Assembly (NCBI GenBank): GCA_000002445.1 | Contig: CM000208.1 | Coordinates: 1,728,001-1,792,000, forward strand | Direction of reading: 5' to 3' | DNA from: Trypanosoma brucei | Taxonomy: Eukaryota | DNA length: 64,000 nt | Shown here: in pieces, positions 16,356-59,840 of the stretch | Layout of the letters: the number at the start of each line of letters is the position of its first letter | How positions within the stretch are numbered: the first letter of the stretch is position 1 | Program-made: the position numbers and the translations under genes | The notes under the pieces: model-generated | Seen by the model: the letters and a program-made list of their open reading frames with translations, nothing else | Databases searched by the model: none | What the model was told of the DNA's origin: nothing

Positions 16356-17094
16356 TAGATCACATACCGAGAGGTGATACTACGCAACGATAGCGAGATA
16401 AGCGGATATAATTTTCATTTGTCGTCGTCAATGTTGTTGTTGTTGTTGTTTTGGTTCTAATTTTTTTTTTTTTGGTGCGAGCGCTACTTCATTGTCTATG
16501 TGGAAAGCACCCAGTTCAGTGGTTTGACTTGTGCCACTGTTACCACCGGTTATTTATTTATTGTCTTACCCCTTTATTTTCTACTTGAACATGTATTTCA
16601 AACTTCTTGTGTTCCTGTGAGTATTCCCCCAAACCGGGTTCCCAATTACGCATATTTTTGATGGTGATGATGATGATATGTTGTATCCTAACATAAATAA
16701 GTTGGCTCGAAAGAAGTGGAAATATATAAATGAACAACGAATGTTAAGAGCGGGGAATCTGTCGGTAATTAACGTCTTTGGTATCGTTGGGTGCGTCTGT
16801 ATTGATATGTAGAACGAAATGTCCCTCTGCAAACAGATTTCTTACGGTAAACACCTTCCGTTTCGGACCGAAAAGTTGTTGGATTTTTTGTCTTTGTTTT
16901 TTTTTTCTTGCTTGGGCGGCTATCATATTCCGATACGGCTCTTTATTATTATTTCTCGCCCTTTTTTTTCTCTGCAGACTCCTTTGTTCCCACCTCGCCC
17001 GTGTATTGCGCTTCCCGTGGGGGGTAAAGGGGTAAGAAGGTGGCGGCACATAGCTGTTCAGGTGAAAAAAAAAGAGGAAAACGAAAGTGTTGCA

Positions 17095-18735: not shown

Positions 18736-19265
18736 GCAGGTTTTGACCGTGAGTCATGACTGAAATGTGTAAACAGTAACAGGATATGTTTGCGTTGGTA
18801 TACAAAATGTTTTGGACACGATTTTCATTTTACACGCTGCACTTGATTCTGTACTGGCCCTGAGCGGTCGCCCAACACCACTTAGTGAGTGTTTCCACTT
18901 TTTCATCTTTATCGGTGGCTGCTGGGCGTGCCCTTCCCCTTGGTGGTTGTTTGAAGTTGTTCGTTGATGTGCTTCTGTTTTCGTAATCCCTTTCTTTTTT
19001 TCGTTTCCATCGGTAGGTTGTGAAACACGAGGTCGAGAAGGCGCAACATTCACATATGTACCCACGGAGTAGGGTCGCCCACTAAAGTGACGGAACACTA
19101 AAAGAACTGGGGCTCCTTGCAGAAGAGAAAGAGGGCAGGTGCATACTGAAGGTCTTGTGTCCGTGTATTTGTGAAGAGCCCACATTCTTGAGTAATAACA
19201 CACACAGTAGTTTACCTTTTCAATTTTTTTTTATAAAAAATATGTTCCTTTTGCCAAGGGAAGTA

Positions 19266-20549
19266 ATGAGGAAGTACGCCATATTTTCCTTAGCAATCAT
19301 ACTGTTGCTATTTACAGTAGTGAGCAGTGAGCCTGGTGAGCGCGATGCGGAGTCCGGGGTGAAGAGAGGGGACGAAAAGCAGAACCTCGTCCTCACTAAG
19401 CTAATTGTTCTCAACCGTCATGGTCACCGCGCCCCTAACGCCCCCTACTGGTCCATGTGCCCCAACGACAGAAAAAACCGCCGCAAGTACAACGTTGGCG
19501 CGGAGGACCTTACGGCGCGCGGCATGAAGGAGGAGTATGAATTGGGGGAGTATTTACGGAACGCGTATCGCGACTTTATTGGACCTCGCTTCAACCGAAG
19601 TCGGCACTTCCTGCGCGCCGTGGGCGAACCCCGAATTCTGCAGTCCGCTCAGGCGGTTGCCCAAGGGCTCTTTCCTGATGGTTATGGGCCCGGTGGCTAT
19701 CTTCCGCGACAACCTCAGTTTGTGCCCGTATTTTCTGATATGGATACTCATGAATATCTTCTCGACGACGTACCGTGCTTCCGCCGCGCTGAGAGGGATA
19801 TGCGCAGATGGTTGAACACTAGCTTGAGTGACTTCATTGCTGACCCTAAAGTCAGCGAGGTGTTAAACTATATGAAACGGATGTGTGGGGTGTCTGAGAA
19901 GGACATGCCACCCGTATATGCTTTTCTGAAAACTGTAGCCGACGGGATGACATTCAATGCCGATTTCGGACTGAGCGTGTGCCATGGGAAGGTAACACCC
20001 GAAATGCTCTTCAAAATACGCAAAGTATCACTACGACTTCTTATGGCGCGACTTTATCACACTGACGAGCAACAAACCTACACCTCTGTAGATTTACCAT
20101 ACCGGATACTCTATATGCTAAATCGGTCAACCTCCCCAGGTGCGAAGGGAGTGAACGATTACTCCGACACAGAGCAGGAAGCCATCCTGTATTTTATGCA
20201 TCGCGAGGCCCTGTACGCTGTTGGAGAGTTCTTTGGTTTCACATTTAATGTCCCAGGTCTGCCGCACGGGGAGCTGCCAGTGGCTTCTACAATTGTATGG
20301 GAGCGGTTGGTTCCTGAGAAGAGCGTCGGGGAAGAGATTGTGCCATCAAGAACGTACGTGCGTCTCATACTATGGACACCAAAGGATGGTACAGCCACGG
20401 TTGCCATACCGCACTGCAGAACACCCCAGCTTTGCACACTCAAAGAACTTCAGGATATATACAGTGCGCGGGTGAAGCGCACTGGATCGTGGTTGAAGCT
20501 GTGCAACTTCACAATCACAGAATTAGACCATGACACGGACATTCGTTAG
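19266..20549 (+). CDS. Histidine acid phosphatase (branch-2 histidine phosphatase superfamily), probably secreted or lysosomal. It has a signal peptide and no C-terminal TM.
   Basis: The track start at 19155 is TTG; the first ATG is 19266 (MRKYAIFSLAIILLLFTVVSS, a signal peptide). Catalytic RHGxRxP motif in LIVLNRHGHRAPN; HD-like motif downstream. Confidence 0.8.
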   Translation: MRKYAIFSLAIILLLFTVVSSEPGERDAESGVKRGDEKQNLVLTKLIVLNRHGHRAPNAPYWSMCPNDRKNRRKYNVGAEDLTARGMKEEYELGEYLRNAYRDFIGPRFNRSRHFLRAVGEPRILQSAQAVAQGLFPDGYGPGGYLPRQPQFVPVFSDMDTHEYLLDDVPCFRRAERDMRRWLNTSLSDFIADPKVSEVLNYMKRMCGVSEKDMPPVYAFLKTVADGMTFNADFGLSVCHGKVTPEMLFKIRKVSLRLLMARLYHTDEQQTYTSVDLPYRILYMLNRSTSPGAKGVNDYSDTEQEAILYFMHREALYAVGEFFGFTFNVPGLPHGELPVASTIVWERLVPEKSVGEEIVPSRTYVRLILWTPKDGTATVAIPHCRTPQLCTLKELQDIYSARVKRTGSWLKLCNFTITELDHDTDIR

Positions 20550-21483
20550 CCTAGTTTCCACACTGACAACCAGCCAGCAGACGTTCTGGAGTTCATCCGT
20601 CAATGGCACTGGTATTGTTAAGGGAATATACATATATATATATATATAGTACGTGTGTATGTCGGGGGGATGCAGCGAGGCAGGATCGGATAGATTATTA
20701 CGAGGACAAGAGCAGAGCGACGTGCATCCTGCTTCGTGAGAGAGGACGACAAAAGAAAGAAATTAAAGAATTGAAGGGAGGAAATCCCACAGACACGCAC
20801 GTAACAAACACTGGCAGTCACAACGTGCCATCATACAAGTTCGTTTCTGACAAAGCAATAATCACAGGAGAGCGTGGTCGGGGGGGGGGTCAGCCCGCAT
20901 CCAAATGCCCCTATTCATGTCCCAATGCTCACATGCATATATGAATTTAATCTATAATTTGCCAGATGGAGAACCATCGGCACGTTGGGGGGAGAAGGTC
21001 GTTGAGAAATACTACAGATATTTCCTATTTTACCTGTAAAGTTCTCTCCTCCTCTCCCCTTACTCCCCCTTTCCAGTATTTCAATAAGGATCCGGCACCT
21101 ATTGGTTCCCTTTGAAAAGGGAAGGGTGAGACAACTGTGGTGTATTTTTTCTGGGGACTGGACACCTGATACGTTGTTGCTGGTGGGCTGTGATGCGGCC
21201 CTTCCGTGTTTTACAACTATGACCCTCCATGCCTTATTCTGATATAATTTGTTCAATCGTTGTCGTTCCCCTTTGTCTCTCCTTCTACGGTGCCGGTGCA
21301 GAAGCAGAATAACGAAACAATAAAAGTGTGACCGCTCGCTTCACCCAAGTCGACCACGGAAAACGTCACGCTTGTACTGTACGCGGGTTCTGGTGCATGG
21401 ACTGAGTTTTGATCGCGTTATTTTGTTTTAACTGTCATAACTGCTCAGGACAAACGACCAAGAGGAAATATAATACTTGCCTC

Positions 21484-22290
21484 ATGGATCCATCGAAGCG
21501 CATATGCCTGAAGAATATCCCACCCGAATGCACAAAACGTGAGATTGCGGAGTTCATCCGCAATCGCACCGGAGGCCAACCACACAGCATTGACCTCGGG
21601 CTTGACAGCAACGGCCGTGTGCGCCGCTACGCACATTTCTCAGTTGAAGGGGCGAAAAATGTCGTCTCAGCACTCACGGGGGCCACGTGGAAAGGTGTCA
21701 CAGTGAGTGCACTCCACGCCAATCCTCATTATACCTACCGTCTGGCCGAGTCACGACGGCGGCGCGAGCACTTGGAATCAGAGGAGAAGCAACAGAGAGA
21801 AGAATTATTGAGGAGAAAAACGGAGCGATGGCTTGCGAAGACGGGTGGTGAATTACCAAAGGGAAGGCCACCAAAACCTTTTTTCGCGTCGAGACAACGT
21901 TACGCAGAGGTGGCCTCTGAAATAGCGAAAAAGAGCAGAGAAGAACACAGGGCAAAGCGCTTGCAGGGTCGTATGCAACAAACTGTCGGAGGCCCCAGTC
22001 GACGGTGGGCTAGAGAGAGTCTAATAGATAAAGCAACGAGTGGACCAGTGCAACCCGGGGTGTCCTTTTCTAATTATTTGCGAAGCAGTTCGCATTGTGA
22101 GCACGAGGGTGGAAGTACAGACCCCAACTCAAGGGTTCTAAAACGTCAGAAGACGGAACGTGCGGGAAACCCGGCCATGAAACCGGTTCAGCAGCAGGAA
22201 ACACCGCAGACAGTCGGACCCACAAGGGAAGAAAGGAAATTGAGTGGTCTAAAGGCGAAACTGGAGGCGTTACGCGCCAAAATGAAGTAA
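21484..22290 (+). CDS. Putative RNA-binding protein with one RRM-like domain and a basic/acidic low-complexity C-terminus (268 aa).
   Basis: The track start at 21409 is TTG; the first ATG is 21484 (MDPSKRICLKNIPPE). RNP2-like ICLKNIP and RNP1-like RRYAHFSVEG; RE/K-rich tail. Confidence 0.5.
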   Translation: MDPSKRICLKNIPPECTKREIAEFIRNRTGGQPHSIDLGLDSNGRVRRYAHFSVEGAKNVVSALTGATWKGVTVSALHANPHYTYRLAESRRRREHLESEEKQQREELLRRKTERWLAKTGGELPKGRPPKPFFASRQRYAEVASEIAKKSREEHRAKRLQGRMQQTVGGPSRRWARESLIDKATSGPVQPGVSFSNYLRSSSHCEHEGGSTDPNSRVLKRQKTERAGNPAMKPVQQQETPQTVGPTREERKLSGLKAKLEALRAKMK

Positions 22291-22732
22291 AGGTTGGGGC
22301 AACTGCTGTGTGCGTGACACGGTAGTCCAACCCACCACCCAGGAAAGACACTAGGTGCGAATCTTCACATTTTCAGTTTTCTGGTAGCTTTGAACCGTGT
22401 TGAGGGGATGGCAGTTTGATTGGGTCGGCCACAGTGAAACTCTTCTCCCGAGAACCTTCTCAGTACTCCCTTACAAGGAAGTGAAGGTCGAATGATCACG
22501 CGCCTACATGGCCCGGTGACGCTGTGTGATAACGCCGTCAGGTGCGGAAACACTGAAGAAAGATAAAACAAGGTGGTATTAACATTTCGCGTGGTTTTCA
22601 AAGAATTATTGCCCCTAAACGCAGTTGCTTTCCACCTCGTAAAAGGTTACAAGTTAAACTTGGGAGGGAAGGGCGCAGCGAGACGGTGGAATGCCCATAT
22701 GCGCTCGTGGTAGCTTCTGGTGTATTTCTTAT

Positions 22733-35470: not shown

Positions 35471-38400
35471 GAGCTGACATTACCTTTGATGGAGTTCCGC
35501 CTTTCAGAGTGATTTGAATGCATGCATTTGTGTTTCTTTTTTTTTTTGGCTCAATATTGTGTTCATGTGTGTGTGTGTGTGTGTGTGTGGTGCGTGTGGA
35601 TTGTGGGGATGGGGGCGGGGGAAATTATGAAATAATCGGCAGAGGGCAGGGTCAAATGAGAGGGAAAGAGGAATATATAAATATATATTTATTTATATTT
35701 ATATTTCTACTCGCTTATTTGTGCTTGGATGCCATCAGTGAAAATTATATGCGTCCTCGAACTCACCGGATGTAAGGAAGCGCGCAGGTTTACTCACGTT
35801 ACAGTGAAAATGTGTAACGCAAGAAAAAACAAAAAGGCTTGTGAGCAAAAAAGAGGAGGAAGGAGGAGAAGGTTAAAAAGAGGAGAGATGCAAAAAAAAA
35901 AAAGGTGAAACAGGAGCAAGAAAAGGTACAGATGTTCAAACAGAGGCAACAAAAAGAGAGACACAAAGTCATAAAATATATTTAGTGATCTATTGAAAGT
36001 GATTTGAGATATTTCAAAAAAAAAAATAAGTGACAACGATGGGAACAATTTTTAATATTAAAAAGAAAAGGGGAAAAAACTATTTTTCCCAACGTGGATT
36101 TTTTTTGTTTTTTCTCCCCTTTTCTTTTCCCACGTCTTTATCCTCTATCCCGTTGGCTGCTTTCCTTTTTTTGTTGTTGTTTTTTTTTTACTGTTTGTTT
36201 TTTGTTCCGTCCATTATTGATCGATTACTGAAGTTTTCGTATCATATGAAATATTTGCTTCTGTTTTGTTGTATAAATAAATATAAATTATTTTTCTTTT
36301 AATCTCTCTTTCCTACTCCTCTTTCATTTGACCTCGCTGTTTTGCCGTCATTTGCTTCCGGTTTTGTTTGGGATGTTTTATGTTAAGTTGTGTTGTGTTA
36401 TATTTTCCTCCTCGACATTATGCGAGAGGGAGAAATGACGGAGTGAAAGAAAGGGGGGAAAAAATGAAAAATAAAAATAAAAAAAAGATGGAACGGTACG
36501 GTGCCCCCAATGAAACCGATATGATTAAATGAGTGAACTGAAAGATTTGGTTTGTATTTTGTTGTGTTATGTTGTGTTATGTGGCGATGCCTTCCCCTGT
36601 GGAGGAGCAACAATAAAAGCAGTGCCTTGGGAATAATAAAAAGAAGAGAGAGAGAGAGAAGAGTAATGTGAAGGGCTGCACAAACATAGTTTTTTTTTCC
36701 CACACACACACACACACACGCACACTTTGGTTTGTTTCGTTTTGTGTTCTTTATTGTGTGCATGAGACTGTCATTAAAAAGAAAAAGAAATAAAAAGAGA
36801 GAAAACATAAAAGAATACGAAATGACGGTGACTTCATACAAGCGTATACGCATGAATATAATAAATATATTTAAATCATGGGTATATGTATTTATATTTA
36901 TATTTGTATGAAGTTGCTAGTGTTCGTGTGCATGTGTTTGGGTGGTGGGGAGAAGCAAGTGACTGAAATGAAAAAAAAAGGAAAGAGGTTATAAAAACAA
37001 TTATGATAATAATAATATACGCGTTGCTTTAGAAATACAGAATGTTTTTTTTTAAAAAAAAATAAATAAAACAGTGGACGGGAAGTGAGATATGTTTTCC
37101 TTTGTTACTATAACAAAACAACAACAACAATAATAATAATAACAATAGCAGTAACGGTAACGATAACGATAATTATAAGAGTAATTTAGAAAGTAAAAGC
37201 AACAAATATTTAATTATTCATTTATGTGGTAGAGAAAGAGAGAGAGAGAGTAAAAGGGGAAAAGGTAGGAATAGGAATAACATTGTTTGTGTTTGTGCTT
37301 TTTTTTCTTTTTTTTCTTTTTTTTCATGTGTGTGTGTTGGGGGGGGGGAACTTCTTTAATTCAACCACTTGTACAACAAAACTTCCAGTAATCGAAGGGT
37401 AAAATCAAATGAGAAGCGGGGGAAAATGTTTTTTTTTGTTTGTTTGTTTGTTTAATGAAAGGAGAAGTATATATGTATATTTATATATACGAATATGTGC
37501 ATCTTTTAAATATTTTAGGTCATCTTCAATATCCTTTCTTCTTTTTTTTTGTGTGTGTGAGAGAGGGAGAGAGAGATTTTTTTTTGTTCGCTTTGTGGCT
37601 CTGACGTGTTCGGCAATCCCATTAGAGAAAAGAAAAAGTTTAGGTATTTTTTTTTATTTAAAAAAAAAAAAGCGTCGTAAGATTTGCGGTCCCCGTATGC
37701 ACATGGCGGTTGCATCTCGTATGTTTTCTCCATTTTTTTTCTTTTTTATTCAGTTATCAACAGTTTCCTTTCTATCTTTTTTTTCTTTTTTTTCTTTATT
37801 ATAATAATTATTGTTCCTTTTCTTTTCATTTTACCTTTTTCTTTTCTGTTTTTGTGTCGTTTATGCTGTTAAAAGAAAAAAAAATGAAAGAAGGGAAAAA
37901 ATAAAAGGAGTGAAGGAGGGACGGACTGGCGGGTGGGAAAAGAAAAGAAAAGAAAAAAACAAAAAAAAGGAAAAGGAAAAAGGAATATATTTTACGATTC
38001 GAAGCAGCCAAAATGAAGTTGTGGTCAGTTAGACGGGGTGAAAGTTTTTTTTTAATTCTTTTCTTTTTCCACTGTTTTTACTCCCTTTCCCCCTTTTCTC
38101 TCCCGTCCTTATCATTATTATTATCATCATCATCCGCTTTGTTTTGTTATATTTTATTCATTTTTCATTTATATCCTTCAGATTCTTCTTTTGGTTGTTG
38201 TAATGACGATGGGTCTGTAGTTGTTTTTTTTTGTTTTTTTTGTCCCAAACTTTAACCAACCTTAAGTTTGAGGATCATTCAAAACGCATCAACTGGTGGA
38301 AAATACGGGGAAAGGGTTAATGGGCGAGAAAAAGAAAAAAATGAAACAACAGCAACAAATAAAAAAAGAGAGAGAGAACAAAAAAAAAAAAAAATATATA

Positions 38401-39594
38401 TATATATAAGAGAAACGGAAGGACAAAGTTGATAGTTATGATGTTTTTAAAAAAAAAAGAAAAGTTAACTTTCCTCCGTTTATTTCATATTTACACAAAT
38501 GACCATTATGCACCAGTTATACAGCATCAGAAAGAGAAAAGGGGAAAGGAAATAAATAAGGAAGGGAGGTACTCATGTCTGTTTTATGTTTTGTGCATTT
38601 GTATGTATGACTGTGCGTAGTTGCACACATTTTCTTCCTCCTTTCTTTCTTTTTATTTATTTGTTTGTTTCTTTCTTTCTCATCATTTGAATGGTGGTAA
38701 GAAGGTTATATGGGGGAGGAAAACAAAAAAATATATTTATATCTACATCCATACCTATATTTATTAAATTCCACATGCAGACACATATGTATATATAAAA
38801 ATGAGAGTGTTTAGAGACGGCGCATTTGTCACTGATCTCTCACGCTCTGATTTGAGATATGTTTTGCTTTTCATCTTCTCGCCTCTTCGTCCTTCTTTTC
38901 CTTGTTTTGTCTCTATCTTCTATCTTAATATCATTGTTTTTTTGTTTTTTTTTTAGAAATGAAGCCTTCAAAACAAAACAAAAAGCAATGATTATGTTAT
39001 GTTCTAACTTAGTTTCATTTAGATGAATATACGCGACATGTTCACAACGCATGGAAAAGTTGCTGAAGTAAACAGCATGGAAATCATGTGTATAATCGCG
39101 GAGGCGAAGTTGCGCGGAGGGAACAAGGGAAATGCATTGAATTAATATTATAAAAGCAACAGGAGATGTAAAAATATTTAAAAAAAAAAAGAAACAAAGT
39201 CACCAGTGAAATGGTTCTGATGCATGACGTTAAGGTGGATTTCATCACTCACAGGCTGTGTTAGTTTGTGTTATTTATCTTTAGATTTCAGGAATTATTT
39301 TCACTGAGAAGTCGAGTAAAATGAATGAATGACTTAATGAAAAGAGCTGGACTTCAATTCTCCCTCCAACCCTTAATGTTTTCAGTACTATTTCCTTTCG
39401 TTCTCTTCCTGCTGCTGCTATGCCCTTTTTTTTTAATTTTCTTGAACCTTCGTTTTGGATCAATCTATTTAAGCGAAAGACTTTCTCTAAGGTGGGACGC
39501 GTTTCCTATAAAAAGAAATAAAATTAACGAAAATAAAAAGAAGGAGGGTTGCGTGGTCTAAAGGTTCAGAAAAGGGGAAATTAAGGCATAGCAA
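35471..39594. repeat. A 4.1-kb AT-rich, low-complexity region with no genes. It is packed with homopolymer runs, (GT)n, (CA)n, (GA)n and (AAT/TTG)n microsatellites, and alternating homopurine/homopyrimidine blocks.
   Basis: Seen directly: (GT)12 at 35566..35589, (GA)8 at 36644..36659, (CA)10 at 36700..36719, and G10 at 37339..37348. All ORFs called here are F/L/K-rich low-complexity artefacts. Confidence 0.85.
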
Positions 39595-51532: not shown

Positions 51533-51754
51533 TCATGCATGTAGCCTCGCAACTCCACGGAGCAGTTGGACTTCCTCGAGTTTTCTGTCAGCCTCCATGA
51601 GTTTCTGCTCGACGAAACCGTGCACAGCCTTTAGTTTTTTTGAGGTATTACATAACGCTTTTATTGCGGACAATTTCAAAGCTGCCCCAGCGTCCGCATG
51701 ATGACAACAACCACTTACTAACGCCACTACTAAAAATGCCACTGTTCTTCGCAT
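51533..51754 (-). pseudogene. Truncated copy B of a signal-peptide protein gene (73 codons from ATG: MRRTVAFLVVALVSGCC..., then a stop). It is paralogous to the decayed copy A upstream.
   Basis: The ATG at 51754-51752 was verified. Its N-terminal region aligns with copy A: CCHHADAGAALKLSAIKALCNTSKKLKAVHGFVEQK against CHFAFADSGALSLSGAAEALRNASGKLKSVYAFVQAK. Confidence 0.6.
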
Positions 51755-51806
51755 TTGCTGAAGAAAACAAAAGATGCCTGGCACCTGCAACCCACTAAGT
51801 TTTCCC

Positions 51807-53000
51807 TTAAACCACACAAACTAAGAAATACGAATTTAAAACAACCAAAAATAACAACGCGAGGGTCCTCCTGAGAGAGTCAGCCCTGCCAACACCACAT
51901 ATCGCCATCTCCTCCAACAGCTTCTCCTCTTGCACCGTTTCTCTGTTCCCGAGCACGACGAATGACTTCCCACTATCCTCATCTACCACTACTGTGCTTT
52001 TATTTCCGTGGGTGCCCGTGTTCACAATAGCTTGCGCGTATTCCCAGTTCCAGTGTGCGCCGGTTTCGTGCGCCAGCTCTTCGATGTGAGTATACAAGTT
52101 CACAAATTTGCGAAGCTCTCGGTAGGCGTTTCTAAGAACGGGGACGTTGTTAACGGGGTCTTCCTCCCAAGTTACATCGTGTATTAGAACCTCTGCACGG
52201 GTTTTTCCTGTCCCCCCAACGAATCCTCTTCCACTTCGTTTAAGGGAAATAATTCTATCTCCCCAGAGTATTCCTCTGGAGGTGCTGTTTTCGGAGAGGT
52301 AGCCGCCCCCGGACGGGTGTTTGTTAGGTGGCAGTTTGCGCTGTGGACGTAGCGTTCCAAGGGGTTTCCACCGCCACCAGTGAGCCTAAGCAATTCGTTC
52401 ATACTCTCCCGTGTCATGTTCATTTCCTCCACCCTTTCCATGCGGTGCATACCCCCCAAAGAAATAAATTCATCCTTCTCCGAGTCACTTAAATAGCAAT
52501 TCAACAACTGATTCCGCGTCGCGTGGTGCTCGCTATTTCCTACGCAAAAATCCCCTTTCCCACTGGAATACGCGCGCCGCCACACATTTATCATTTCATC
52601 CAACCTCCCCGCCGCTATCCCTGCTGCCCCTACCGCTGAGTATCCAAGATATCTCAACCTCTTCAATTCTCTCCTCTTCACCCTATTCACTTTACTCCCC
52701 ACACGTTTCAAAAACTTCGCGATCCCCGTGCACGAGGTCCAATTGCTATTTCCCCCTTCATTTCCCCTAACCTTCACAATCTTCAACCTCACCAACTCCA
52801 CCATATCCTCAAACTCCCTCACCTTCTCGGTTGCATACTTAGTTTTCGCTTGGACGAAGGCATACACCGATTTCAACTTCCCCGACGCATTACGGAGCGC
52901 TTCCGCAGCTCCACTCAAACTCAGTGCGCCACTGTCCGCAAAAGCAAAATGACAAAGAGAAAAATACAACGACTAGCGCATCCACGCGTCGATGAACTTT
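51807..53000 (-). pseudogene. Decayed copy A of the same gene. A signal-peptide-like segment (HRRVDALVVVFFSLSFCFC, no ATG) sits in one frame. The 261-codon body (52969..52184) sits in a second frame. A 98-codon segment (52103..51807) ending in a hydrophobic C-terminal tail (LALLFLVVLNSYFLVCVV) sits in a third. This is the layout of a secreted or GPI-anchored surface-protein relic.
   Basis: The track 'M' starts are TTG or GTG, and no ATG precedes the signal peptide. Three frames are needed to read it through, so there are at least two frameshifts. Confidence 0.55.
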
Positions 53001-56000
53001 ACTCTTGGCGGAAGGGGCGGGGGAAGGGGAAGTGAATAAGTTGTTAGTGGGCCTGTGAAGAAAAAAAATCAGTAATTTGACATGCCTTCTTTCCAGAACC
53101 GGCTGGCTTGTCTTTTCATATGGCGGTGCAACTACCGCGGCAATATTGGTGGGGGAGGGGAGATGCAATGAGATTGTTATTCCACTTTCAAACTTGGTGC
53201 ACAACCCTCGCAAGAAAACCTGGTTCCGCCTTACCAAAGCTGGGCACGGCATGCTCGACACAAAGACTAGTGATAATCGGCACGGGTGTGAATCGGTGCG
53301 GTGAGGTGTTGAGTCCGCTCACTCGCCCACATCGCGCAGTTGAATGCGGCGTGAAATGGCACTTTGATGGGGAAATGGGACTTCCCAACGTCAGAAGCCG
53401 AAATAAGATTATCAGAACAGAAATTATTCCACTCGGGCGTAGCAGTGCACGGGGGATGCAACGCACCCTTATGGATCTTGAAACAGACAACGGTCAACCA
53501 GCAGCGGGCCGCCTCCAACGTATGGATCGGAGTGTGCGTCAACAGAATTTACTTGTGCCATTACGAGCTTAGATCGCCCGCGTAAGGGGGAAATTGTTGG
53601 GAAATTTGCCCACAAATACGTACCCGCGGGCTTCGGAGGGGATCTTATCGCCTCCTAAGAGGTGGGACGTTATGGATGAATCCCTTCGGGAGCCGAATAG
53701 CGTGGCTGTGGCGGTGGAAAACCCACGGTGGAAACGGGCTGCCGCCACATCTCTGGGGACGAGCCTTGCAAGGCGCGTGGGTTACGGGAGATAAAGATTG
53801 CCAAGCCGAAAAGGGCGCACAGAAACAGTGCCATATGGCGGTGGGTGGTGCGGAACCTCGAAACCAAAAGCGGCCGAATCAGCAGGTTAGAATTTGACAC
53901 AGTGCTTACTCCAAGCTCTCTTAAACTTGATTGCAGTACCCGACAAACAACCGTTAGCAGGGAGGCATCAGGGGAATTGCCCTTCAGGGATGAGCAGCGC
54001 GAAGCCCGAAAACATGCCGAAAGATCCAATGATGGAACCACCGGGAACGGGGAATCGTAAGCCGAAGCCCTTGGCCTTGGCCTTAGGGAGGGGGGGGTTA
54101 AAGTTAACGGTAAATGAATTTTGTACAGGAGCCGCGCCCTTGGGAAATATACACTAAGGGGATTTGCAGAAGGTCTGTGGGAAAGGGAGGCTGCGCTTGC
54201 TGGGCTTTGTGACCACCTCACCGAAAGCACTGTCACACAATGAAAAGCGGGAGATGGTCATTATAATGCCAATCTTGGTGTCAAAACATGATGAAACGCC
54301 AATAGCAACCTGCAGTGGCCCTCGGCAGCACCATCCAAGGCGCGTCCCACAGCAATGCCCAGTGCGGCACGCCCATCCACTTCAAATATCACCTATCGCT
54401 AAGAGTGGCGGGATACCGTCACCAAATGTTTCCACCACTCCTAAAATACTGTGTTGCGATTTCGAAGTGGGGCAGCCAAGCAAGCGTTGAAGATATATCG
54501 ATGGAAAAAAGAAAGGGGCGTCGGCGGTTAGGTGATGTCCGCTACCGCAGCGCCCACGGCATCCGAGGGGAAGCGCAGTTGCCACAACCACGGCGCACGA
54601 CTCCGCGTAGTTCAATCCGACCTCTGAACATTCCACTATGTGCCAGGGGCAAGTGGGGGTAAAAAAGATACCAAGGACGACAGAGTAACCTGGATATGCC
54701 TGAATCCCTTCCCTAAACGCGCAAACTGACTGTGCAGTCCTGAAAACAGCAACACCGCACACGCCACGCACGGAGGAACGCAACACCACCCCAGGTTGGT
54801 TGATCAAACAAACAGGAAAGCAACATTCCGGGTGTTCGAAAGGAAAGCGAGAGAGCGACCACCAACTGGCGCCAAGGCTGCCGGAGAACAACAAAATCTC
54901 TCCGGGTTGTTAAAGCAGTTGGGGTGGAAGCAATAGTGAGAGGCGATACCGGAAGTGCTAGGCCCTTAAAGAATCCGGTACTATCCGAACAACAGGTTGC
55001 AGGAAATAACGGAAATTGGTGCACGAATGTGGCTGGCGGAATGGGGAACATATCTGCATGCAGATACGGATGCTGCACACCAAAAATAGATGGCCGAGCA
55101 ACACACCGCCACCAAATACATAGAACGCAAGCATGGCCACAACCTACAAAAGCAGCGCAACTCCCTTAAGTTTGAGTCCGAGGAATTTTCTCTACACCTT
55201 CCCCCGCTCCAACTCCCAAGGGCATTGCATGCAGAATGTGAAGTGGATACCGTCGTAACAGTTGGAATTAGTAGCTCAGGAGGGTTATCAAAGTTGAATA
55301 ATGATCACCCGCGATGATTTTGCAAGCCATTCCGTTGTATTGATCCCACCAAAACTGTCGGTGTGAGCAATGCCGTACCAACGCATTGGTCTATACACTA
55401 TACCTTCACTTTCCAACATATATTAAAAGGGCCAAGAAAAATTAGGCGCAGAGTGGGGGGATTTTTCCCACGACGGAAACTCCAACTGAACCACCATACA
55501 AGCGGTTGCACGAAAAGTGCGACGTGTGAAGCAGAGGCGACGGTTGCAGCACCAGCACGCATGGGCGACGCTGAAGTCTTCGGTTATCACTCGTTTGTGT
55601 TTACCCGTAAAGCGCCAAGCAGATTATAGGGGTTAAGTTTCTATTTCCCGATGTTCCCCCCACTAAACCGCTCACTGGCCCCCAAATTGAAAACTTTCCC
55701 TCCTTAATTACATGTTGCATCTATCGTGTTTTAGGGTTCTCAGCAGGGTCAATGCCGCTTGCGAAAACTACTTCATCAGTCTAAATACGGTACGCTTCAG
55801 AGAAAACACGATGACACAGACAAACTATGGTCTAAAAATATTTAGAAAAAAGGATAAAGAATAAGGGCTTCTGGAATGACGACGGCAGTGGAGCGTTCTC
55901 CTATTTTCCAACAAACACTCGGCCAAAAGTGAAATTATTCCCGCAATAGTTGAAATTGCTCACGAAGAATCATATGTTTGTAAAAGAAAAAATGTATGTA

Positions 56001-56393
56001 TATATATAGATAAATATAATTATTGTTATTCATACGTGCGCACTCGTACATAAATGTACTGCTAATACCTACAACACATCCAAACAGAAATGCAATAATC
56101 CCAACTCGAGTACGAAGCGGAGCAACGCTCACACAACTTCGTCCCCCATACCGTTTGTGGGAACCAGTGGCACGTCACATGTGTTCACTCCCTGTTCTGT
56201 ACATGCAGAACTGTTAAATCTCAATGAGTACATGTTTACCTGATGAAAAGAAAAAACTGGGCTCAAAGACTACGAAAAAAAAATAGGTAAATAAACTCCC
56301 TCCCGATCGATCACAACATAATAAATCTTCGAAAAAAAAAACTTTCCCCCTTACCGGTCCCCTTTCATCCGGTTAAAACAAAAAACTATAGCT

Positions 56394-59300
56394 TTACGGT
56401 TTCGCTTCATCTGAGGATTGAGTTACGGGTACGGCAAAAGATGCATCAGATAAGCATCGTGGCACCTCCTCCATCATAACCTCGTTGTCGCATATGACAA
56501 CCGCGTTCTGGCGTTCCCTTCCCAAAAATAAAACTGCCGACAGCCCCACCGCCAGTAACAAAAACGTGGAACCAACCAAAAGCAGCAATCCCGCACTGAC
56601 GCTCGATCCTTTCCCCTTTGCATTCGAGAACTTGGGGGAATCCTCAGTAGAGCATCCATCACAGAATGCAACAAGCTTTAACGAACACGAAGATTTCAAG
56701 AACATTCCGTCAGTCCCGTCCGCTGCATCGCTTACCTCCGTATCATTGCAGTCACCTGTGATGTCGCAATCATCAGTTTCATTGCAGTCACCTGTGATGT
56801 TGCAATCATCAGTTTCATTGCAGTCACCTGTGATGTCGCAATCATCGGTTTCATTGCAGTCACCTGTGATGTTGCAATCATCGGTTTCATTGCAGTCACC
56901 TGTGATGTTACAATCATCGGTTTCATTGCAGTCACCTGTGATGTCGCAATCATCGGTTTCATTGCAGTCACCTGTGATGTTGCAATCATCGGTTTCATTG
57001 CAGTCACCTGTGATGTTACAATCATCGGTTTCATTGCAGTCACCTGTGATGTCGCAATCATCGGTTTCATTGCAGTCACCTGTGATGTTACAATCATCGG
57101 TTTCATTGCAGTCACCTGTGATGTTGCAATCATCGGTTTCATTGCAGTCACCTGTGATGTTGCAATCATCGGTTTCATTGCAGTCACCTGTGATGTTGCA
57201 ATCATCGGTTTCATTGCAGTCACCTGTGATGTTGCAATCATCGGTTTCATTGCAGTCACCTGTGATGTCGCAATCATCGGTTTCATTGCAGTCACCTGTG
57301 ATGTTGCAATCATCGGTTTCATTGCAGTCACCTGTGATGTCGCAATCATCGGTTTCATTGCAGTCACCTGTGATGTTACAATCATCGGTTTCATTGCAGT
57401 CACCTGTGATGTCGCAATCATCGGTTTCATTGCAGTCACCTGTGATGTCGCAATCATCAGTTTCATTGCAGTCACCTGTGATGTTGCAATCATCGGTTTC
57501 ATTGCAGTCACCTGTGATGTTGCAATCATCGGTTTCATTGCAGTCACCTGTGATGTTACAATCATCGGTTTCATTGCAGTCACCTGTGATGTCGCAATCA
57601 TCGGTTTCATTGCAGTCACCTGTGATGTTGCAATCATCGGTTTCATTGCAGTCACCTGTGATGTCGCAATCATCGGTTTCATTGCAGTCACCTGTGATGT
57701 CGCAATCATCAGTTTCATTGCAGTCACCTGTGATGTTGCAATCATCGGTTTCATTGCAGTCACCTGTGATGTTGCAATCATCGGTTTCATTGCAGTCACC
57801 TGTGATGTTACAATCATCGGTTTCATTGCAGTCACCTGTGATGTTGCAATCATCGGTTTCATTGCAGTCACCTGTGATGTTGCAATCATCGGTTTCATTG
57901 CAGTCACCTGTGATGTTGCAATCATCAGTTTCATTGCAGTCACCTGTGATGTTGCAATCATCAGTTTCATTGCAGTCACCTGTGATGTTGCAATCATCAG
58001 TTTCATTGCAGTCACCTGTGATGTTGCAATCATCAGTTTCATTGCAGTCACCTGTGATGTTGCAATCATCAGTTTCATTGCAGTCACCTGTGATGTTGCA
58101 ATCATCGGTTTCATTGCAGTCACCTGTGATGTTGCAATCATCGGTTTCATTGCAGTCACCTGTGATGTTGCAATCATCAGTTTCATTGCAGTCACCTGTG
58201 ATGTCGCAATCATCAGTTTCATTGCAGTCACCTGTGATGTCGCAATCATCGGTTTCATTGCAGTCACCTGTGATGTTGCAATCATCAGTTTCATTGCAGT
58301 CACCTGTGATGTCGCAATCATCGGTTTCATTGCAGTCACCTGTGATGTTGCAATCATCGGTTTCATTGCAGTCACCTGTGATGTTGCAATCATCAGTTTC
58401 ATTGCAGTCACCTGTGATGTCGCAATCATCGGTTTCATTGCAGTCACCTGTGATGTTACAATCATCGGTTTCATTGCAGTCACCTGTGATGTCGCAATCA
58501 TCGGTTTCATTGCAGTCACCTGTGATGTCGCAATCATCGGTTTCATTGCAGTCACCTGTGATGTTGCAATCATCGGTTTCATTGCAGTCACCTGTGATGT
58601 TGCAATCATCGGTTTCATTGCAGTCACCTGTGATGTTGCAATCATCAGTTTCATTGCAGTCACCTGTGATGTTGCAATCATCAGTTTCATTGCAGTCACC
58701 TGTGATGTCGCAATCATCGGTTTCATTGCAGTCACCTGTGATGTTGCAATCATCGGTTTCATTGCAGTCACCTGTGATGTTGCAATCATCAGTTTCATTG
58801 CAGTCACCTGTGATGTCGCAATCATCGGTTTCATTGCAGTCACCTGTGATGTTGCAATCATCGGTTTCATTGCAGTCACCTGTGATGTCGCAATCATCAG
58901 TTTCATTGCAGTCACCTGTGATGTTGCAATCATCAGTTTCATTGCAGTCACCTGTGATGTTGCAATCATCAGTTTCATTGCAGTCACCTGTGATGTCGCA
59001 ATCATCAGTTTCATTGCAGTCACCTGTGATGTCGCAATCATCGGTTTCATTGCAGTCACCTGTGATGTTGCAATCATCAGTTTCATTGCAGTCACCTGTG
59101 ATGTCGCAATCATCGGTTTCATTGCAGTCACCTGTGATGTCGCAATCATCGGTTTCATTGCAGTCACCTGTGATGTTACAATCATCGGTTTCATTGCAGT
59201 CACCTGTGATGTCGCAATCATCGGTTTCATTGCAGTCACCTGTGATGTTGCAATCATCAGTTTCATTGCAGTCACCTGTGATGTCGCAATCATCGGTTTC

Positions 59301-59840
59301 ATTGCAGTCACCTGTGATGTTGCAATCATCAGTTTCATTGCAGTCACCTGTGATGTCGCAATCATCGGTTTCATTGCAGTCACCTGTGATGTTGCAATCA
59401 TCAGTTTCATTGCAGTCACCTGTGATGTCGCAATCATCGGTTTCATTGCAGTCACCTGTGATGTTACAATCATCGGTTTCATTGCAGTCACCTGTGATGT
59501 CGCAATCATCGGTTTCATTGCAGTCACCTGTGATGTTGCAATCATCGGTTTCATTGCAGTCACCTGTGATGTTGCAATCATCGGTTTCATTGCAGTCACC
59601 TGTGATGTTACAATCATCAGTTTCATTGCAGTCACCTGTGATGTTACAATCATCGGCGTAACCCGTAGCGTTCTTGTAGTCGAAGAAGAAATCATCATGT
59701 ACGGCATCAGCAGGGGGTGTGGCTACCTCAGCATTTGATTCTTCAAAGATTGGACCTGCCTCGTTAGCCATGCCAGGCACACACGCGGTGCTGGTGAATA
59801 AGACGGTCATAAACAAAGGAATGTAGTATTTGGCGGACAT
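56394..59840 (-). CDS. CRAM: CRAM: cysteine-rich, acidic, repetitive type-I membrane protein, a procyclic-stage flagellar-pocket putative lipoprotein receptor. It has a signal peptide, about 81 copies of a 12-aa repeat, a TM and a cytoplasmic tail.
   Basis: ATG at 59840-59838. N-terminal MSAKYYIPLFMTVLFTSTACVPG. The repeat CNETDDC(N/D)ITGD is 36 bp per unit. C-terminal TM AGLLLLVGSTFLLLAVGLSAVLFLG followed by a ~40-aa acidic tail. This matches the published description of T. brucei CRAM. Confidence 0.9.
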   Translation of the reverse strand: MSAKYYIPLFMTVLFTSTACVPGMANEAGPIFEESNAEVATPPADAVHDDFFFDYKNATGYADDCNITGDCNETDDCNITGDCNETDDCNITGDCNETDDCNITGDCNETDDCDITGDCNETDDCNITGDCNETDDCDITGDCNETDDCNITGDCNETDDCDITGDCNETDDCNITGDCNETDDCDITGDCNETDDCNITGDCNETDDCDITGDCNETDDCNITGDCNETDDCDITGDCNETDDCDITGDCNETDDCNITGDCNETDDCDITGDCNETDDCDITGDCNETDDCNITGDCNETDDCNITGDCNETDDCDITGDCNETDDCNITGDCNETDDCDITGDCNETDDCNITGDCNETDDCNITGDCNETDDCDITGDCNETDDCNITGDCNETDDCNITGDCNETDDCNITGDCNETDDCNITGDCNETDDCDITGDCNETDDCDITGDCNETDDCNITGDCNETDDCDITGDCNETDDCNITGDCNETDDCNITGDCNETDDCDITGDCNETDDCNITGDCNETDDCDITGDCNETDDCDITGDCNETDDCNITGDCNETDDCNITGDCNETDDCNITGDCNETDDCNITGDCNETDDCNITGDCNETDDCNITGDCNETDDCNITGDCNETDDCNITGDCNETDDCNITGDCNETDDCNITGDCNETDDCNITGDCNETDDCNITGDCNETDDCNITGDCNETDDCDITGDCNETDDCDITGDCNETDDCNITGDCNETDDCDITGDCNETDDCNITGDCNETDDCNITGDCNETDDCNITGDCNETDDCDITGDCNETDDCDITGDCNETDDCNITGDCNETDDCDITGDCNETDDCNITGDCNETDDCDITGDCNETDDCNITGDCNETDDCNITGDCNETDDCNITGDCNETDDCNITGDCNETDDCNITGDCNETDDCDITGDCNETDDCNITGDCNETDDCNITGDCNETDDCDITGDCNETDDCNITGDCNETDDCNITGDCNETDDCDITGDCNETDDCNITGDCNETDDCDITGDCNDTEVSDAADGTDGMFLKSSCSLKLVAFCDGCSTEDSPKFSNAKGKGSSVSAGLLLLVGSTFLLLAVGLSAVLFLGRERQNAVVICDNEVMMEEVPRCLSDASFAVPVTQSSDEAKP
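56745..59655. repeat. A 36-bp tandem repeat array of ~81 units that encodes the CRAM 12-aa repeat. The units differ at a few positions (aac/gac giving N/D; atcggt/atcagt silent).
   Basis: Seen directly: near-perfect periodicity of 36 bp over ~2.9 kb. Confidence 0.95.

What the first reader, a model, noticed from the sequence alone, without database searches (positions are those of the whole stretch)
53000..56393. A 3.4-kb GC-rich island without a coherent reading frame, between the pseudogene relics and the CRAM 3' end
This stretch yields 30 or more overlapping ORFs of 60-190 codons in all six frames, which suggests non-coding DNA of atypically high GC for a T. brucei intergenic region. There is no uninterrupted frame and no recognisable protein. 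It contains strongly self-complementary segments, for example GTGGCGGTGG...CCGCCAC at ~53705-53750. Three successive - strand ORFs in different frames at 55078..53670 could be a frameshifted pseudogene. CRAM's functional 3' UTR should occupy only the first few hundred bp below 56394, so most of this island is unexplained. It may be a degenerate gene or retroelement, or a long structured ncRNA.
Basis: seen in the sequence. Interest (0 to 1): 0.5.

Follow-up and report, generated by a model that had tools for sequence, protein, structure and literature searches.

The report
Orphan non-coding spacer after CRAM
The 3.4 kb below the CRAM gene is ordinary, fast-evolving, Trypanosoma brucei-specific non-coding DNA at the end of a transcription unit, not a hidden gene, mobile element or structured RNA, and public annotations already cover it with three doubtful short ORFs.

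Summary
The stretch is real: no long ORF lies between the CRAM stop (56394) and the PAG1-like gene (ATG 52981). It has two parts. The 0.74 kb next to CRAM (55651-56393) is AT-rich (GC 0.39) with U-tracts and a 24-nt polypyrimidine tract, as expected of a 3'UTR and RNA-processing zone. The other 2.65 kb (52982-55650) is 52% GC.

The many short ORFs are only a modest excess over dinucleotide shuffles (29 vs 21.4±2.9). None shows coding codon usage, a Pfam domain or an Rfam match. There are no repeats and no excess RNA folding, and the cited hairpin folds no better than shuffles (z -0.7/-1.1).

T. b. gambiense has the same sequence at 98.7% identity, carrying non-triplet indels. Three ORFs annotated there or in TREU927 ("T. 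brucei spp.-specific", "hypothetical, unlikely", Tb10.6k15.3520) give pN/pS about 0.95, against 0.13 in neighbouring genes. T. vivax, T. cruzi, T. theileri and T. grayi have nothing similar at the syntenic place.

The block is not a decayed copy of PAG1, CRAM or the ancestral neighbour genes. It sits beside a recent PAG1-derived segment at a convergent strand-switch region, an arrangement already described.

Best reading: a passively transcribed, unconstrained spacer that yields at most low-level non-coding RNAs. Interest is low.

The parts
55651..56393 (-). AT-rich proximal segment (GC 0.39). It probably holds the CRAM 3'UTR plus the polyadenylation/trans-splicing zone.
   Evidence: Composition. 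The k-mer model classes it as '- strand intergenic'. U-tracts lie at 56341-56331, 56283-56274, 56256-56245 and 55992-55982. Divergence from T. b. gambiense is 1.9% with 3 indels.
55832..55867 (-). A 24-nt polypyrimidine tract (55867-55844) followed by the first AG (55833-55832). It is a candidate spliced-leader acceptor and would place CRAM's poly(A) site roughly 0.4-0.5 kb below the stop codon.
   Evidence: The tract is identical in T. b. gambiense, but that AG reads AT there, and the next AG a few nt downstream is shared. Use of the site is inferred, not shown.
52982..55650 (.). GC-rich (0.52) orphan block with no coding signal, homolog, repeat or excess structure. The - strand is pyrimidine-rich (0.56).
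   Evidence: It is 98.7% identical to T. b. gambiense, with indels of 4, 1 and 4 nt. Differences are spread evenly, and the longest difference-free run is 351 nt (p = 0.12).
53120..53572 (+). 150-codon ATG ORF, annotated in T. b. gambiense DAL972 as 'T. brucei spp.-specific protein' (CBH15786.1).
   Evidence: Both differences from the gambiense copy are non-synonymous. An exhaustive HMMER search of 1.84 billion proteins found no other credible relative. AlphaFold2 on the single sequence gave mean pLDDT 36.6.
53725..54060 (+). 111-codon ORF, annotated in T. b. gambiense as 'hypothetical protein, unlikely' (CBH15787.1). Its ATG reads ACG in this window.
   Evidence: It carries 3 non-synonymous changes and 1 synonymous change.
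54713..55051 (-). 112-codon ATG ORF. It is Tb10.6k15.3520 'hypothetical protein' in TREU927 (EAN78124.1) and 'T. brucei spp.-specific protein' in gambiense (CBH15788.1).
   Evidence: The enclosing open stretch has a codon-usage score of -0.04, which is null level.
54372..54480 (-). Imperfect hairpin of about 110 nt, the only locally stable fold in the island.
   Evidence: z = -2.77 on - and -2.07 on +. Control regions reach -3.65, so it is within what 88 tests are expected to give.
53705..53750 (.).
   Evidence: It forms an 11-bp stem but z is only -0.68/-1.11.
53004..53068 (-). Strong polypyrimidine tracts (53068-53057 and 53032-53010) with an AG at 53004. This is a candidate splice acceptor for the PAG1-like gene, whose ATG is at 52981, and it marks the distal edge of the island.
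   Evidence: It is conserved in T. b. gambiense.
51559..52939 (-). Flanking context. This segment is 98.4% identical to the genuine PAG1 locus, running from PAG1 codon 39 to 277 nt past its stop. It includes the PAG1-like ORF (51836-52981), which is disrupted in this window.
   Evidence: The downstream fragment 51539-51820 hits Trypan_glycop (E 2.7e-5). The PAG-like protein aligns to it with z = 17.
56394..59840 (-). Flanking context: the CRAM gene (1148 codons here).
   Evidence: Pfam CRAM_rpt, 77 stretches. CRAM is Tb10.6k15.3510 (PMC2837033).

Best explanation
The interval is the non-coding tail of the - strand polycistron that ends with CRAM and a PAG1-like gene at a convergent strand-switch region on T. 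brucei chromosome 10.

The first 0.5-0.75 kb below the CRAM stop is AT-rich and U-rich, and ends at a polypyrimidine tract plus AG. It serves as the CRAM 3'UTR and as the coupled polyadenylation/trans-splicing zone.

The remaining 2.65 kb, at 52% GC, is T. brucei-lineage-specific sequence under no detectable protein-coding or RNA-structure constraint. RNA polymerase II reads through it on the way to the PAG1-like gene and the termination zone. The internal and distal polypyrimidine/AG signals may turn it into low-abundance spliced-leader-capped, polyadenylated RNAs without a real ORF, or into long-UTR isoforms.

Its many short ORFs are a by-product of a stop-poor, strand-skewed, coding-like base composition.

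Shown: absence of coding signal, homology, repeats and structure; near-neutral divergence; lineage restriction; the flanking architecture.
Inferred: transcription, RNA processing at the named signals, and any origin from decayed older coding DNA.
For: Context:
- + strand genes run to 50754. The PAG1-like gene, CRAM, DTD and the TPR gene are all on the - strand, so the two units converge at about 50.8-51.6 kb.
- The PAG1-like ORF is disrupted in this window.

No coding signal:
- The 32 open stretches have codon-usage log-odds of -0.22 to +0.11. Out-of-frame ORFs in real genes score -0.04±0.075, and 18 real genes score 0.05-0.22.
- All six frames gave no Pfam family at E<=1. The long ORFs hit neither Pfam nor PDB.
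- An exhaustive HMMER search of the 163-aa + stretch found only its own gambiense copy, plus a 24-residue hit to a repeat protein.

No selection:
- Against T. b. gambiense, the three annotated ORFs show 6 non-synonymous and 2 synonymous changes, pN/pS 0.95. The start codon of one is lost.
- Three neighbouring genes give pN/pS 0.13.
- The GC-rich block differs by 1.34%, with indels of 4, 1 and 4 nt. Neighbouring genes differ by 2.1% at synonymous sites, and two neighbouring inter-CDS spacers by 0.3-0.9%.

Not RNA-structured.
Not repetitive or duplicated.

Lineage-specific:
- The syntenic flanks of T. vivax, T. cruzi, T. theileri and T. grayi carry other genes and nothing similar.

Processing signals and strand bias:
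- Polypyrimidine tracts with AG lie at 55867-55832, 54518-54449 and 53068-53004.
- The - strand is 56% pyrimidine, like the other two spacers of this unit (0.55-0.56). Coding sense strands average 0.48.

Literature:
- PAG-like genes sit at convergent strand-switch regions enriched in histone H3.V (PMC2731899).
- T. brucei expresses 1428 mostly intergenic, trans-spliced and polyadenylated lncRNAs (PMC9200285).
Against: - No expression data could be consulted, so transcription, splice sites and poly(A) sites are all inferred.
- At 52% GC over 2.65 kb, the k-mer make-up is closer to coding than to the window's intergenic DNA. Published T. brucei lncRNAs are described as less GC-rich than mRNAs. 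The composition therefore remains unexplained by a plain-spacer reading.
- The first AG after the 55867-55844 tract is not conserved in gambiense.
- The + strand frame from 53081 to 54487 has only 4 stops, though this is not significant (p = 0.07).
- Only one comparison genome at 1.3% divergence was available, so the tests for constraint have little power (8 substitutions in the ORFs).
- T. congolense, the best outgroup, could not be fetched.
Confidence: 0.6

Rival explanations
1. The GC-rich block is the wreck of one or more old protein-coding genes, on either strand, decayed beyond recognition. It would be left over from the rearrangement that created this salivarian- or T. brucei-specific end of the transcription unit. 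This concerns origin and is compatible with the best explanation's account of present behaviour.
For: - The k-mer model classes 53000-55500 as coding-like, by 0.02-0.06 bits/nt over the intergenic model.
- Stop trinucleotides are depleted as in genes, and open stretches are in modest excess (p = 0.02).
- The + frame from 53081 to 54487 has 4 stops in 469 codons.
- The region is a synteny break. Stercorarian trypanosomes continue with epimerase, MFS and a 1040-aa gene, where T. brucei has DTD, CRAM and the island.
- Neighbouring DNA is demonstrably made of gene fragments.
Against: - No frame is significantly open (p = 0.07), and codon usage is at null level.
- Frameshift-tolerant alignment to the ancestral syntenic genes, to the PAG1-like protein and to CRAM's unique parts gave z <= 1.4.
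- The same method recovers a gene with 50% of its bases substituted plus 8 indels, and recovers the real PAG fragment at z = 17.
- No Pfam hit in six frames.
Confidence: 0.2
2. The whole 3.4 kb is one long CRAM 3'UTR that helps give CRAM its procyclic-specific expression.
For: - It is contiguous with the CRAM stop and on the same strand.
- Its sense strand is pyrimidine-rich.
- Multi-kb 3'UTRs exist in T. brucei (own knowledge).
- The AG after the first strong polypyrimidine tract is not conserved.
Against: - Composition changes sharply at about 55650, from UTR-like AT-rich to 52% GC.
- A conserved 24-nt polypyrimidine tract with nearby AGs lies 527 nt below the stop. Several more follow at 54855, 54668, 54518, 54190 and 54097. 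In trypanosomes such tracts normally trigger upstream polyadenylation (PMC2731899).
- Divergence is near neutral, with indels.
Confidence: 0.1
3. One or more of the annotated short ORFs (150 aa +, 111 aa +, 112 aa -) encode real T. brucei-specific proteins, i.e. young or de novo genes.
For: - They are annotated in T. b. gambiense and TREU927.
- The 150- and 112-codon ORFs are intact in both genomes.
- The longest difference-free run (54682-55033) overlaps the 112-codon ORF.
Against: - pN/pS is 0.95 and one start codon is lost.
- Codon usage is at null level.
- Two of the ORFs lie antisense to the transcription unit.
- There are no homologs, and no confident fold (pLDDT 36.6; this is weak evidence because it is a single-sequence prediction).
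- One carries the label 'unlikely'.
- The difference-free run is not significant (p = 0.12).
Confidence: 0.05
4. The block is a functional non-coding element. It could be a structured or regulatory lncRNA, or a polymerase-termination element working with the adjacent PAG1-derived sequence at the convergent strand-switch region.
For: - Its position is immediately upstream of a PAG1-like sequence at a convergent strand-switch region.
- PAG1 carries elements on both strands that stop Pol I, and PAG-like sequences mark H3.V-rich termination regions (PMC2731899).
- Splice and poly(A) signals bound a 2.7-kb unit.
- There is one stable 110-nt hairpin.
Against: - There is no excess folding overall and no Rfam family.
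- Divergence is near neutral, with evenly spread substitutions and indels.
- The island has no similarity to the PAG1 ORF or to PAG1 5'UTR nt ~520-1263.
Confidence: 0.05

Closest known systems
PAG-associated convergent strand-switch regions of T. brucei (Haenni et al. 2009, NAR 37:5007, PMC2731899)
   Same: A PAG1-like gene lies at the end of a transcription unit that faces another unit. The segment next to the island, 51559-52939, is 98.4% identical to the genuine PAG1 locus. The paper reports that all annotated PAG-like genes lie at convergent strand-switch regions enriched in H3.V.
   Different: The island is not itself PAG-related. It shows no similarity to the PAG1 ORF, to PAG1 5'UTR nt ~520-1263 or to the sequence downstream of PAG1. 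Homology stops 42 nt inside the PAG1-like ORF.
'T region' of the EP/PAG1 procyclin locus
   Same: It is a stretch several kb long at the distal end of a unit that encodes a procyclic-stage surface protein, beyond or between PAG genes. It contains only small ORFs (<240 bp in the T region) and lies next to an opposing transcription unit (PMC4721609; PMC2731899).
   Different: The T region is transcribed by Pol I, is known to give mature transcripts and overlaps antisense GU2 mRNA. None of this is known for the island. Sequence similarity could not be tested because no T-region sequence was available.
T. brucei intergenic lncRNAs (Guegan et al. 2022, PMC9200285)
   Same: It is intergenic, has low coding potential and is flanked by ordinary polypyrimidine/AG processing motifs.
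   Different: Published lncRNAs are described as less GC-rich than mRNAs, whereas this block is as GC-rich as coding DNA. No RNA evidence was available here.
'Hypothetical protein, unlikely' and 'T. brucei spp.-specific protein' ORF calls in GeneDB-style annotation
   Same: Three island ORFs carry exactly these labels (CBH15786.1, CBH15787.1, CBH15788.1 / EAN78124.1 = Tb10.6k15.3520).
   Different: Nothing differs. The present analysis adds that they evolve neutrally and lack coding codon usage.

Membership tests
Protein-coding gene or pseudogene of a known family | Significant similarity of some reading frame to a protein family or to another protein | tested here: not met
   Six-frame Pfam scan at E<=1 found 0 families. 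The long ORFs hit neither Pfam nor PDB. Exhaustive HMMER on the 163-aa + stretch found only its own ortholog. The two concatenated-ORF searches are not counted, because they missed identical proteins that are in that collection.
Protein-coding gene or pseudogene of a known family | Coding codon usage, or one frame significantly free of stops | tested here: not met
   Codon log-odds are at null level. The best 470-codon window has 5 stops vs 8.3±1.8 (p = 0.07).
Protein-coding gene or pseudogene of a known family | Purifying selection between strains (pN/pS well below 1, indels in triplets) | tested here: not met
   pN/pS is 0.95 for the three annotated ORFs against 0.13 for neighbouring genes. 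Indels are 4, 1 and 4 nt. Power is low, with only 8 substitutions.
Non-LTR retroposon (ingi / RIME / DIRE / SIDER) | Reverse-transcriptase or endonuclease coding remnants | tested here: not met
   No RVT or Exo_endo_phos match, or any other Pfam match, in six frames at E<=1.
Non-LTR retroposon (ingi / RIME / DIRE / SIDER) | Conserved 5' signature, A-rich tail, target-site duplication, multiple genomic copies | not testable with these tools
   No T. brucei retroposon library or whole genome was available. Within the window there is no second copy and no flanking direct repeat.
Structured non-coding RNA | Match to a curated RNA family | tested here: not met
   Rfam at gathering thresholds gave nothing in the island. 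At E<=10 there were only mir-297 (E 0.98) and sR4 (E 3.2), both far below their gathering scores.
Structured non-coding RNA | Folding energy below that of shuffles | tested here: not met
   Mean z is +0.10/-0.07 over 44 windows of 150 nt, and controls look the same. The single outlier is 54350-54499, at z -2.8.
Structured non-coding RNA | Compensatory base changes | not testable with these tools
   Only one related sequence, at 1.3% divergence, was available.
Trypanosome lncRNA (trans-spliced, polyadenylated, >200 nt, non-coding) | Low coding potential together with flanking polypyrimidine/AG signals | tested here: met
Trypanosome lncRNA (trans-spliced, polyadenylated, >200 nt, non-coding) | Observed RNA with a spliced leader and a poly(A) tail | not testable with these tools
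   No RNA-seq access. The supplementary tables of PMC9200285 are not held.
PAG-related sequence (Haenni 2009) | Nucleotide similarity to PAG1, PAG2 or PAG3 | tested here: not met
   A contig of the PAG1 locus (L009) matches only window 51559-52939. Its 858 nt upstream of that match and 876 nt downstream have no match in the island, even with word size 7. The protein-level frameshift-tolerant alignment gives z 0.3/-0.5. PAG1 5'UTR nt 0-520 was not available.
Convergent strand-switch / Pol II termination region | Opposed gene orientation on the two sides | tested here: met
   Genes are on the + strand up to 50754 and on the - strand from 51559 upward.
Convergent strand-switch / Pol II termination region | H3.V, H4.V or base J enrichment; end of nascent transcription | not testable with these tools
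   Literature statement only: all annotated PAG-like genes lie in H3.V-enriched regions (PMC2731899).
CRAM 3'UTR | Contiguous with the stop codon and ending at a mapped poly(A) site | tested here: inconclusive
   The sequence predicts an end roughly 0.4-0.5 kb below the stop, upstream of the 55867-55844 tract. No mapped sites were available, and the original cDNA paper (PMC361037) is not held.

The most novel reading that the evidence does not exclude
The 2.7-kb GC-rich block, bounded by splice and poly(A) signals, might be a T. brucei-specific non-coding RNA gene or a polymerase-pausing element. Together with the adjacent PAG1-derived sequence, it would help stop Pol II at this convergent strand-switch region, or tune the procyclic-stage expression of CRAM.
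Probability: 0.08. Interest if true: 0.45.

Novelty: already known. Interest (0 to 1): 0.12.

Why it matters
It matters little in itself. The result removes a candidate: the interval hides no gene, retroelement or structured RNA.

It also gives sequence-based grounds to treat three public ORF annotations (Tb10.6k15.3520 and the gambiense proteins CBH15786 and CBH15787) as non-coding.

The locus is a clear example of an arrangement already described, in which a lineage-specific surface-protein gene, orphan DNA and a recently copied PAG1 fragment pile up at a convergent strand-switch region. It could serve anyone studying how Pol II termination zones in trypanosomes gain and lose sequence.

Tried and rejected
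1. Concatenated open stretches from each strand, searched against the 5.8-billion-protein collection, gave no hits. Later calls showed that identical proteins (P0016, P0018, P0019/P0020) are in that collection. These two negatives are therefore uninformative and are not used.
2. Decayed MFS transporter. T. cruzi, T. theileri and T. grayi have MFS genes downstream of the TPR gene. Several of these MFS proteins gave weak tblastn hits in the same order at 55068-54905 (-). Frameshift-tolerant alignment against locally shuffled and reversed decoys gave z -0.65 to 1.0, so the lead was rejected as hydrophobic and compositional noise.
3. Decayed GlcNAc 2-epimerase-like gene or the 1040-1050-aa syntenic gene: z <= 1.4.
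4. Decayed PAG1-like or CRAM copy: z <= 0.3. The 17-nt inverted match 52361-52377 / 53708-53724 does not extend.
5. Long PAG1-type 5'UTR. The PAG1 locus contig shares nothing with the island. Only 5'UTR nt ~520-1263 could be tested.
6. + strand pseudogene in the frame 53081-54487: not significant (p = 0.07), and codon score only about 0.03.
7. tRNA genes, which are common at strand-switch regions: none.
8. The bacterial promoter/terminator scan is irrelevant to this organism and gave shuffle-level counts.
9. Exact-protein look-ups failed for CRAM, the TPR gene, the 206-aa PAG1 remnant, the 150-aa ORF and TREU927 PAG1. TREU927 contigs appear not to be indexed.
10. Attempts to find the Tb927.10 identifier of CRAM, or any paper on Tb10.6k15.3520, failed.

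Full report
WHERE THE WINDOW COMES FROM

The window is from chromosome 10 of a Trypanosoma brucei-group genome.
- Rfam finds three copies of the TB10Cs1 snoRNA cluster at 1154-12181.
- The sequence is collinear with T. b. gambiense DAL972 chromosome 10 (FN554973.1:1728373-1748825, locus L008) at 98.2% over 14.4 kb.
- It is collinear with a T. equiperdum OVI contig at 99.3%.

Genes lie on the + strand up to 50754; the last one is membrane-bound acid phosphatase 2. From about 51559 upward they lie on the - strand. In order these are a PAG1-like gene, CRAM (56394-59840, 77 CRAM_rpt hits), a D-Tyr-tRNA deacylase and a TPR protein. The finding therefore lies in the last inter-CDS space of a - strand transcription unit, just before a convergent strand-switch region.

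THE OBSERVATION

The interval 53000-56393 has no long ORF.
- It holds 32 stop-to-stop open stretches of at least 60 codons across six frames, the longest 195 codons.
- With ATG/GTG/TTG starts it holds 22 ORFs.
- The longest ATG-initiated ORF is 150 codons.

The interval is not uniform. 53000-55650 is 52.1% GC, while 55651-56393 is 39.3% GC. The 17 inter-CDS spaces of the + strand unit range from 0.33 to 0.53 GC. Only one of them, 581 bp long, reaches 0.52. The GC-rich block is thus unusual for its length but not outside the range.

The ORF excess shrinks once composition is respected. It is 29 vs 21.4±2.9 in dinucleotide shuffles of the GC-rich part (p about 0.02). No frame is significantly open: the best 470-codon window has 5 stops vs 8.3±1.8 (p = 0.07). 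Stop trinucleotides are depleted on both strands about as much as in real genes.

The quoted hairpin at 53705-53750 folds no better than shuffles (z -0.68/-1.11).

IS ANYTHING ENCODED?

A codon-usage log-odds score was trained on 18 genes of the window.
- Those genes score 0.05-0.22 per codon, and the PAG1-like ORF scores 0.15.
- Out-of-frame ORFs inside genes score -0.04±0.075.
- The island's 32 stretches range from -0.22 to +0.11.

All six frames, with stops masked, gave no Pfam family at E<=1. The four longest ORFs gave nothing in Pfam, and three ORFs gave only chance-level PDB matches.

An exhaustive HMMER search of 1.84 billion proteins with the 163-aa + stretch found two things. One was a 150-aa T. 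b. gambiense protein, 99% identical, which is the same ORF. The other was a 24-residue match to a bacterial-type repeat protein.

That hit opened up the public annotation. Three island ORFs are already called:
- 53120-53572 (+): 'T. brucei spp.-specific protein'.
- 53725-54060 (+): 'hypothetical protein, unlikely'.
- 54713-55051 (-): 'T. brucei spp.-specific protein', which is Tb10.6k15.3520 in TREU927.

CRAM is Tb10.6k15.3510 (PMC2837033), so these are its immediate annotated neighbours.

Compared with gambiense, these ORFs carry 6 non-synonymous and 2 synonymous changes (pN/pS 0.95), and one has lost its ATG. Three neighbouring conserved genes give pN/pS 0.13 (pS 2.1%, pN 0.28%). AlphaFold2 on the 150-aa ORF gave mean pLDDT 36.6, which is weak evidence because no alignment exists.

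I conclude that these are ORF calls, not genes.

CAVEAT ON TWO SEARCHES

The two word-indexed searches with concatenated ORFs returned nothing. They also failed to return these identical proteins, which are in the same collection. I therefore do not use them as evidence.

IS IT A DECAYED COPY OF SOMETHING NEARBY OR ANCESTRAL?

Orthologs of the upstream TPR gene were used to fetch the syntenic flanks.
- T. vivax has the deacylase, then small ORFs and about 6 kb without calls.
- T. cruzi has MFS transporters and a ~1050-aa gene. T. theileri and T. grayi have a GlcNAc 2-epimerase-like gene followed by an MFS transporter; T. theileri then has a ~1040-aa gene and a second MFS gene, while T. grayi has 402- and 574-aa genes.
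- None of these has DNA or protein similarity to the island.

Weak MFS hits in the same order at 55068-54905 prompted a frameshift-tolerant protein-to-DNA alignment with locally shuffled and reversed decoys. All candidates gave z <= 1.4. The PAG1-like protein and CRAM's unique ends gave z <= 0.3.

The method works. It recovers a gene after 50% base substitution plus 8 indels. It also finds the real PAG fragment at 51542-51835 with z = 17.

The island has no repeats, no tandem arrays and no second copy in the window.

IS IT A STRUCTURED RNA?

There is no Rfam family at gathering thresholds, and only two chance matches at E<=10. Folding z-scores over 44 windows of 150 nt average +0.10 (+) and -0.07 (-), the same as control regions. 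One hairpin of about 110 nt (54372-54480) reaches z -2.8, within the range of the controls. There are no tRNA genes.

HOW IT EVOLVES

Against gambiense, divergence by segment is:
- GC-rich block: 1.34% (32 of 36 changes are transitions), with indels of 4, 1 and 4 nt.
- AT-rich part: 1.9%.
- PAG1-like segment: 1.8%.
- Strand-switch spacer: 1.3%.
- Two + strand spacers: 0.3-0.9%.
- Conserved CDS: 0.2-1.0%.

Differences are spread evenly, and the longest difference-free run is 351 nt (p = 0.12). This is near-neutral behaviour.

THE SURROUNDINGS

A Logan contig carrying the genuine PAG1 gene (Q01889) matches window 52939-51559 at 98.4%. The match runs from PAG1 codon 39 to 277 nt past its stop, and nothing else matches. 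A recent PAG1 fragment has therefore been placed at this strand-switch region.

The homology ends 42 nt inside the PAG1-like ORF, so the island is not part of that copy. It is also not homologous to PAG1 5'UTR nt ~520-1263.

The PAG1-like ORF is intact in gambiense (381 aa). In this window it has a stop at codon 3 and a frameshift. TREU927 annotates a 206-aa remnant.

Haenni et al. (PMC2731899) reported three relevant things:
- All annotated PAG-like genes lie at convergent strand-switch regions enriched in H3.V.
- PAG1 carries elements that stop Pol I.
- Polyadenylation is coupled to the downstream polypyrimidine/AG splice signal.

MECHANISM PROPOSED

The - strand carries these signals:
- U-tracts within 150 nt of the CRAM stop.
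- A conserved 24-nt polypyrimidine tract at 55867-55844, with nearby AGs.
- Further tracts at 54855, 54668, 54518, 54190 and 54097.
- A strong tract at 53068-53010, with an AG at 53004, just before the PAG1-like ATG.

The - strand is 56% pyrimidine, like the two other spacers of this unit, whereas coding sense strands average 48%.

I infer three steps:
1. CRAM mRNA ends about 0.4-0.5 kb below its stop.
2. Pol II reads through the 2.65-kb block.
3. The block is released, at most, as low-abundance spliced and polyadenylated RNAs without a real ORF. This would be comparable to the 1428 mostly intergenic lncRNAs described in T. brucei (PMC9200285).

None of these steps could be checked against expression data.

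WHAT REMAINS UNEXPLAINED

The composition of the block is coding-like. It may be the unrecognisable remains of older genes at a synteny break. That concerns its origin and does not conflict with its present non-coding, unconstrained state.

VERDICT

This is an ordinary, lineage-specific, unconstrained spacer in a locus architecture that is already described. Public annotation already covers it with three doubtful ORFs. Interest is low.

Noticed in passing
window 51836-52981 (-): The PAG1-like gene is an intact 381-aa ORF in T. b. gambiense (CBH15785.1). In this window it has TAG at codon 3 (52975) and a 1-nt deletion at 52305 that is compensated at 51846. TREU927 annotates only a 206-aa remnant (EAN78123.1). 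The gene is thus polymorphic or decaying within the T. brucei group.
   Followed up: yes
window 51559-52939 (-); L009 859-2239: A 1.38-kb segment is 98.4% identical to the genuine PAG1 locus, from PAG1 codon 39 to 277 nt past its stop, including the start of the next PAG-type ORF. This points to a recent duplication or gene conversion onto this convergent strand-switch region, with sharp breakpoints.
   Followed up: partly
(method): the search for homologous proteins, given long concatenated ORF queries, returned nothing. Yet proteins identical to parts of the query (P0016, P0018, P0019/P0020) are in its collection. Negatives from such queries should not be trusted.
   Followed up: yes
window 1154-12181 (+): Three copies of the H/ACA snoRNA cluster TB10Cs1 (H1, H2 and H3; only two copies of H2 reach threshold). 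They are interleaved with protein-coding ORFs.
   Followed up: no
window 35471-39594: A 4.1-kb inter-CDS region that is very AT-rich (GC 0.27-0.39), with (GA)n, (GT)n and A/T runs. It lies between a 329-aa gene and the fatty-acid desaturase gene. It is the compositional opposite of the island and just as long.
   Followed up: no
window 54372-54480 (-): An imperfect hairpin of about 110 nt (MFE -52.4 kcal/mol for 54350-54499, z -2.8, 0 of 200 shuffles as stable). It carries three substitutions relative to gambiense (54394, 54398, 54435). It is within the range seen in control regions.
   Followed up: partly
window 56485-59661 (+) and 56732-59707 (-): ORFs of about 1000 codons that overlap CRAM are alternative frames of the 36-nt repeat array, not genes. 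The T. b. gambiense assembly splits or collapses CRAM into a 734-aa call and a 359-aa antisense call.
   Followed up: partly
L002 (T. vivax) 16400-22499; L004, L006, L007: Synteny breaks right after the TPR gene. Salivarian species (T. brucei, T. vivax) have the D-Tyr-tRNA deacylase next. T. cruzi, T. theileri and T. grayi continue with an MFS transporter and further genes, preceded by a GlcNAc 2-epimerase-like gene in T. theileri and T. grayi. T. vivax also has about 6 kb without gene calls distal to the deacylase.
   Followed up: partly
window 52361-52377 vs 53708-53724: A 17-nt inverted match (16/17) links the PAG1-like ORF (GGGGNP region) to the island's quoted hairpin arm. About 0.1 such matches are expected by chance, and it does not extend.
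   Followed up: yes
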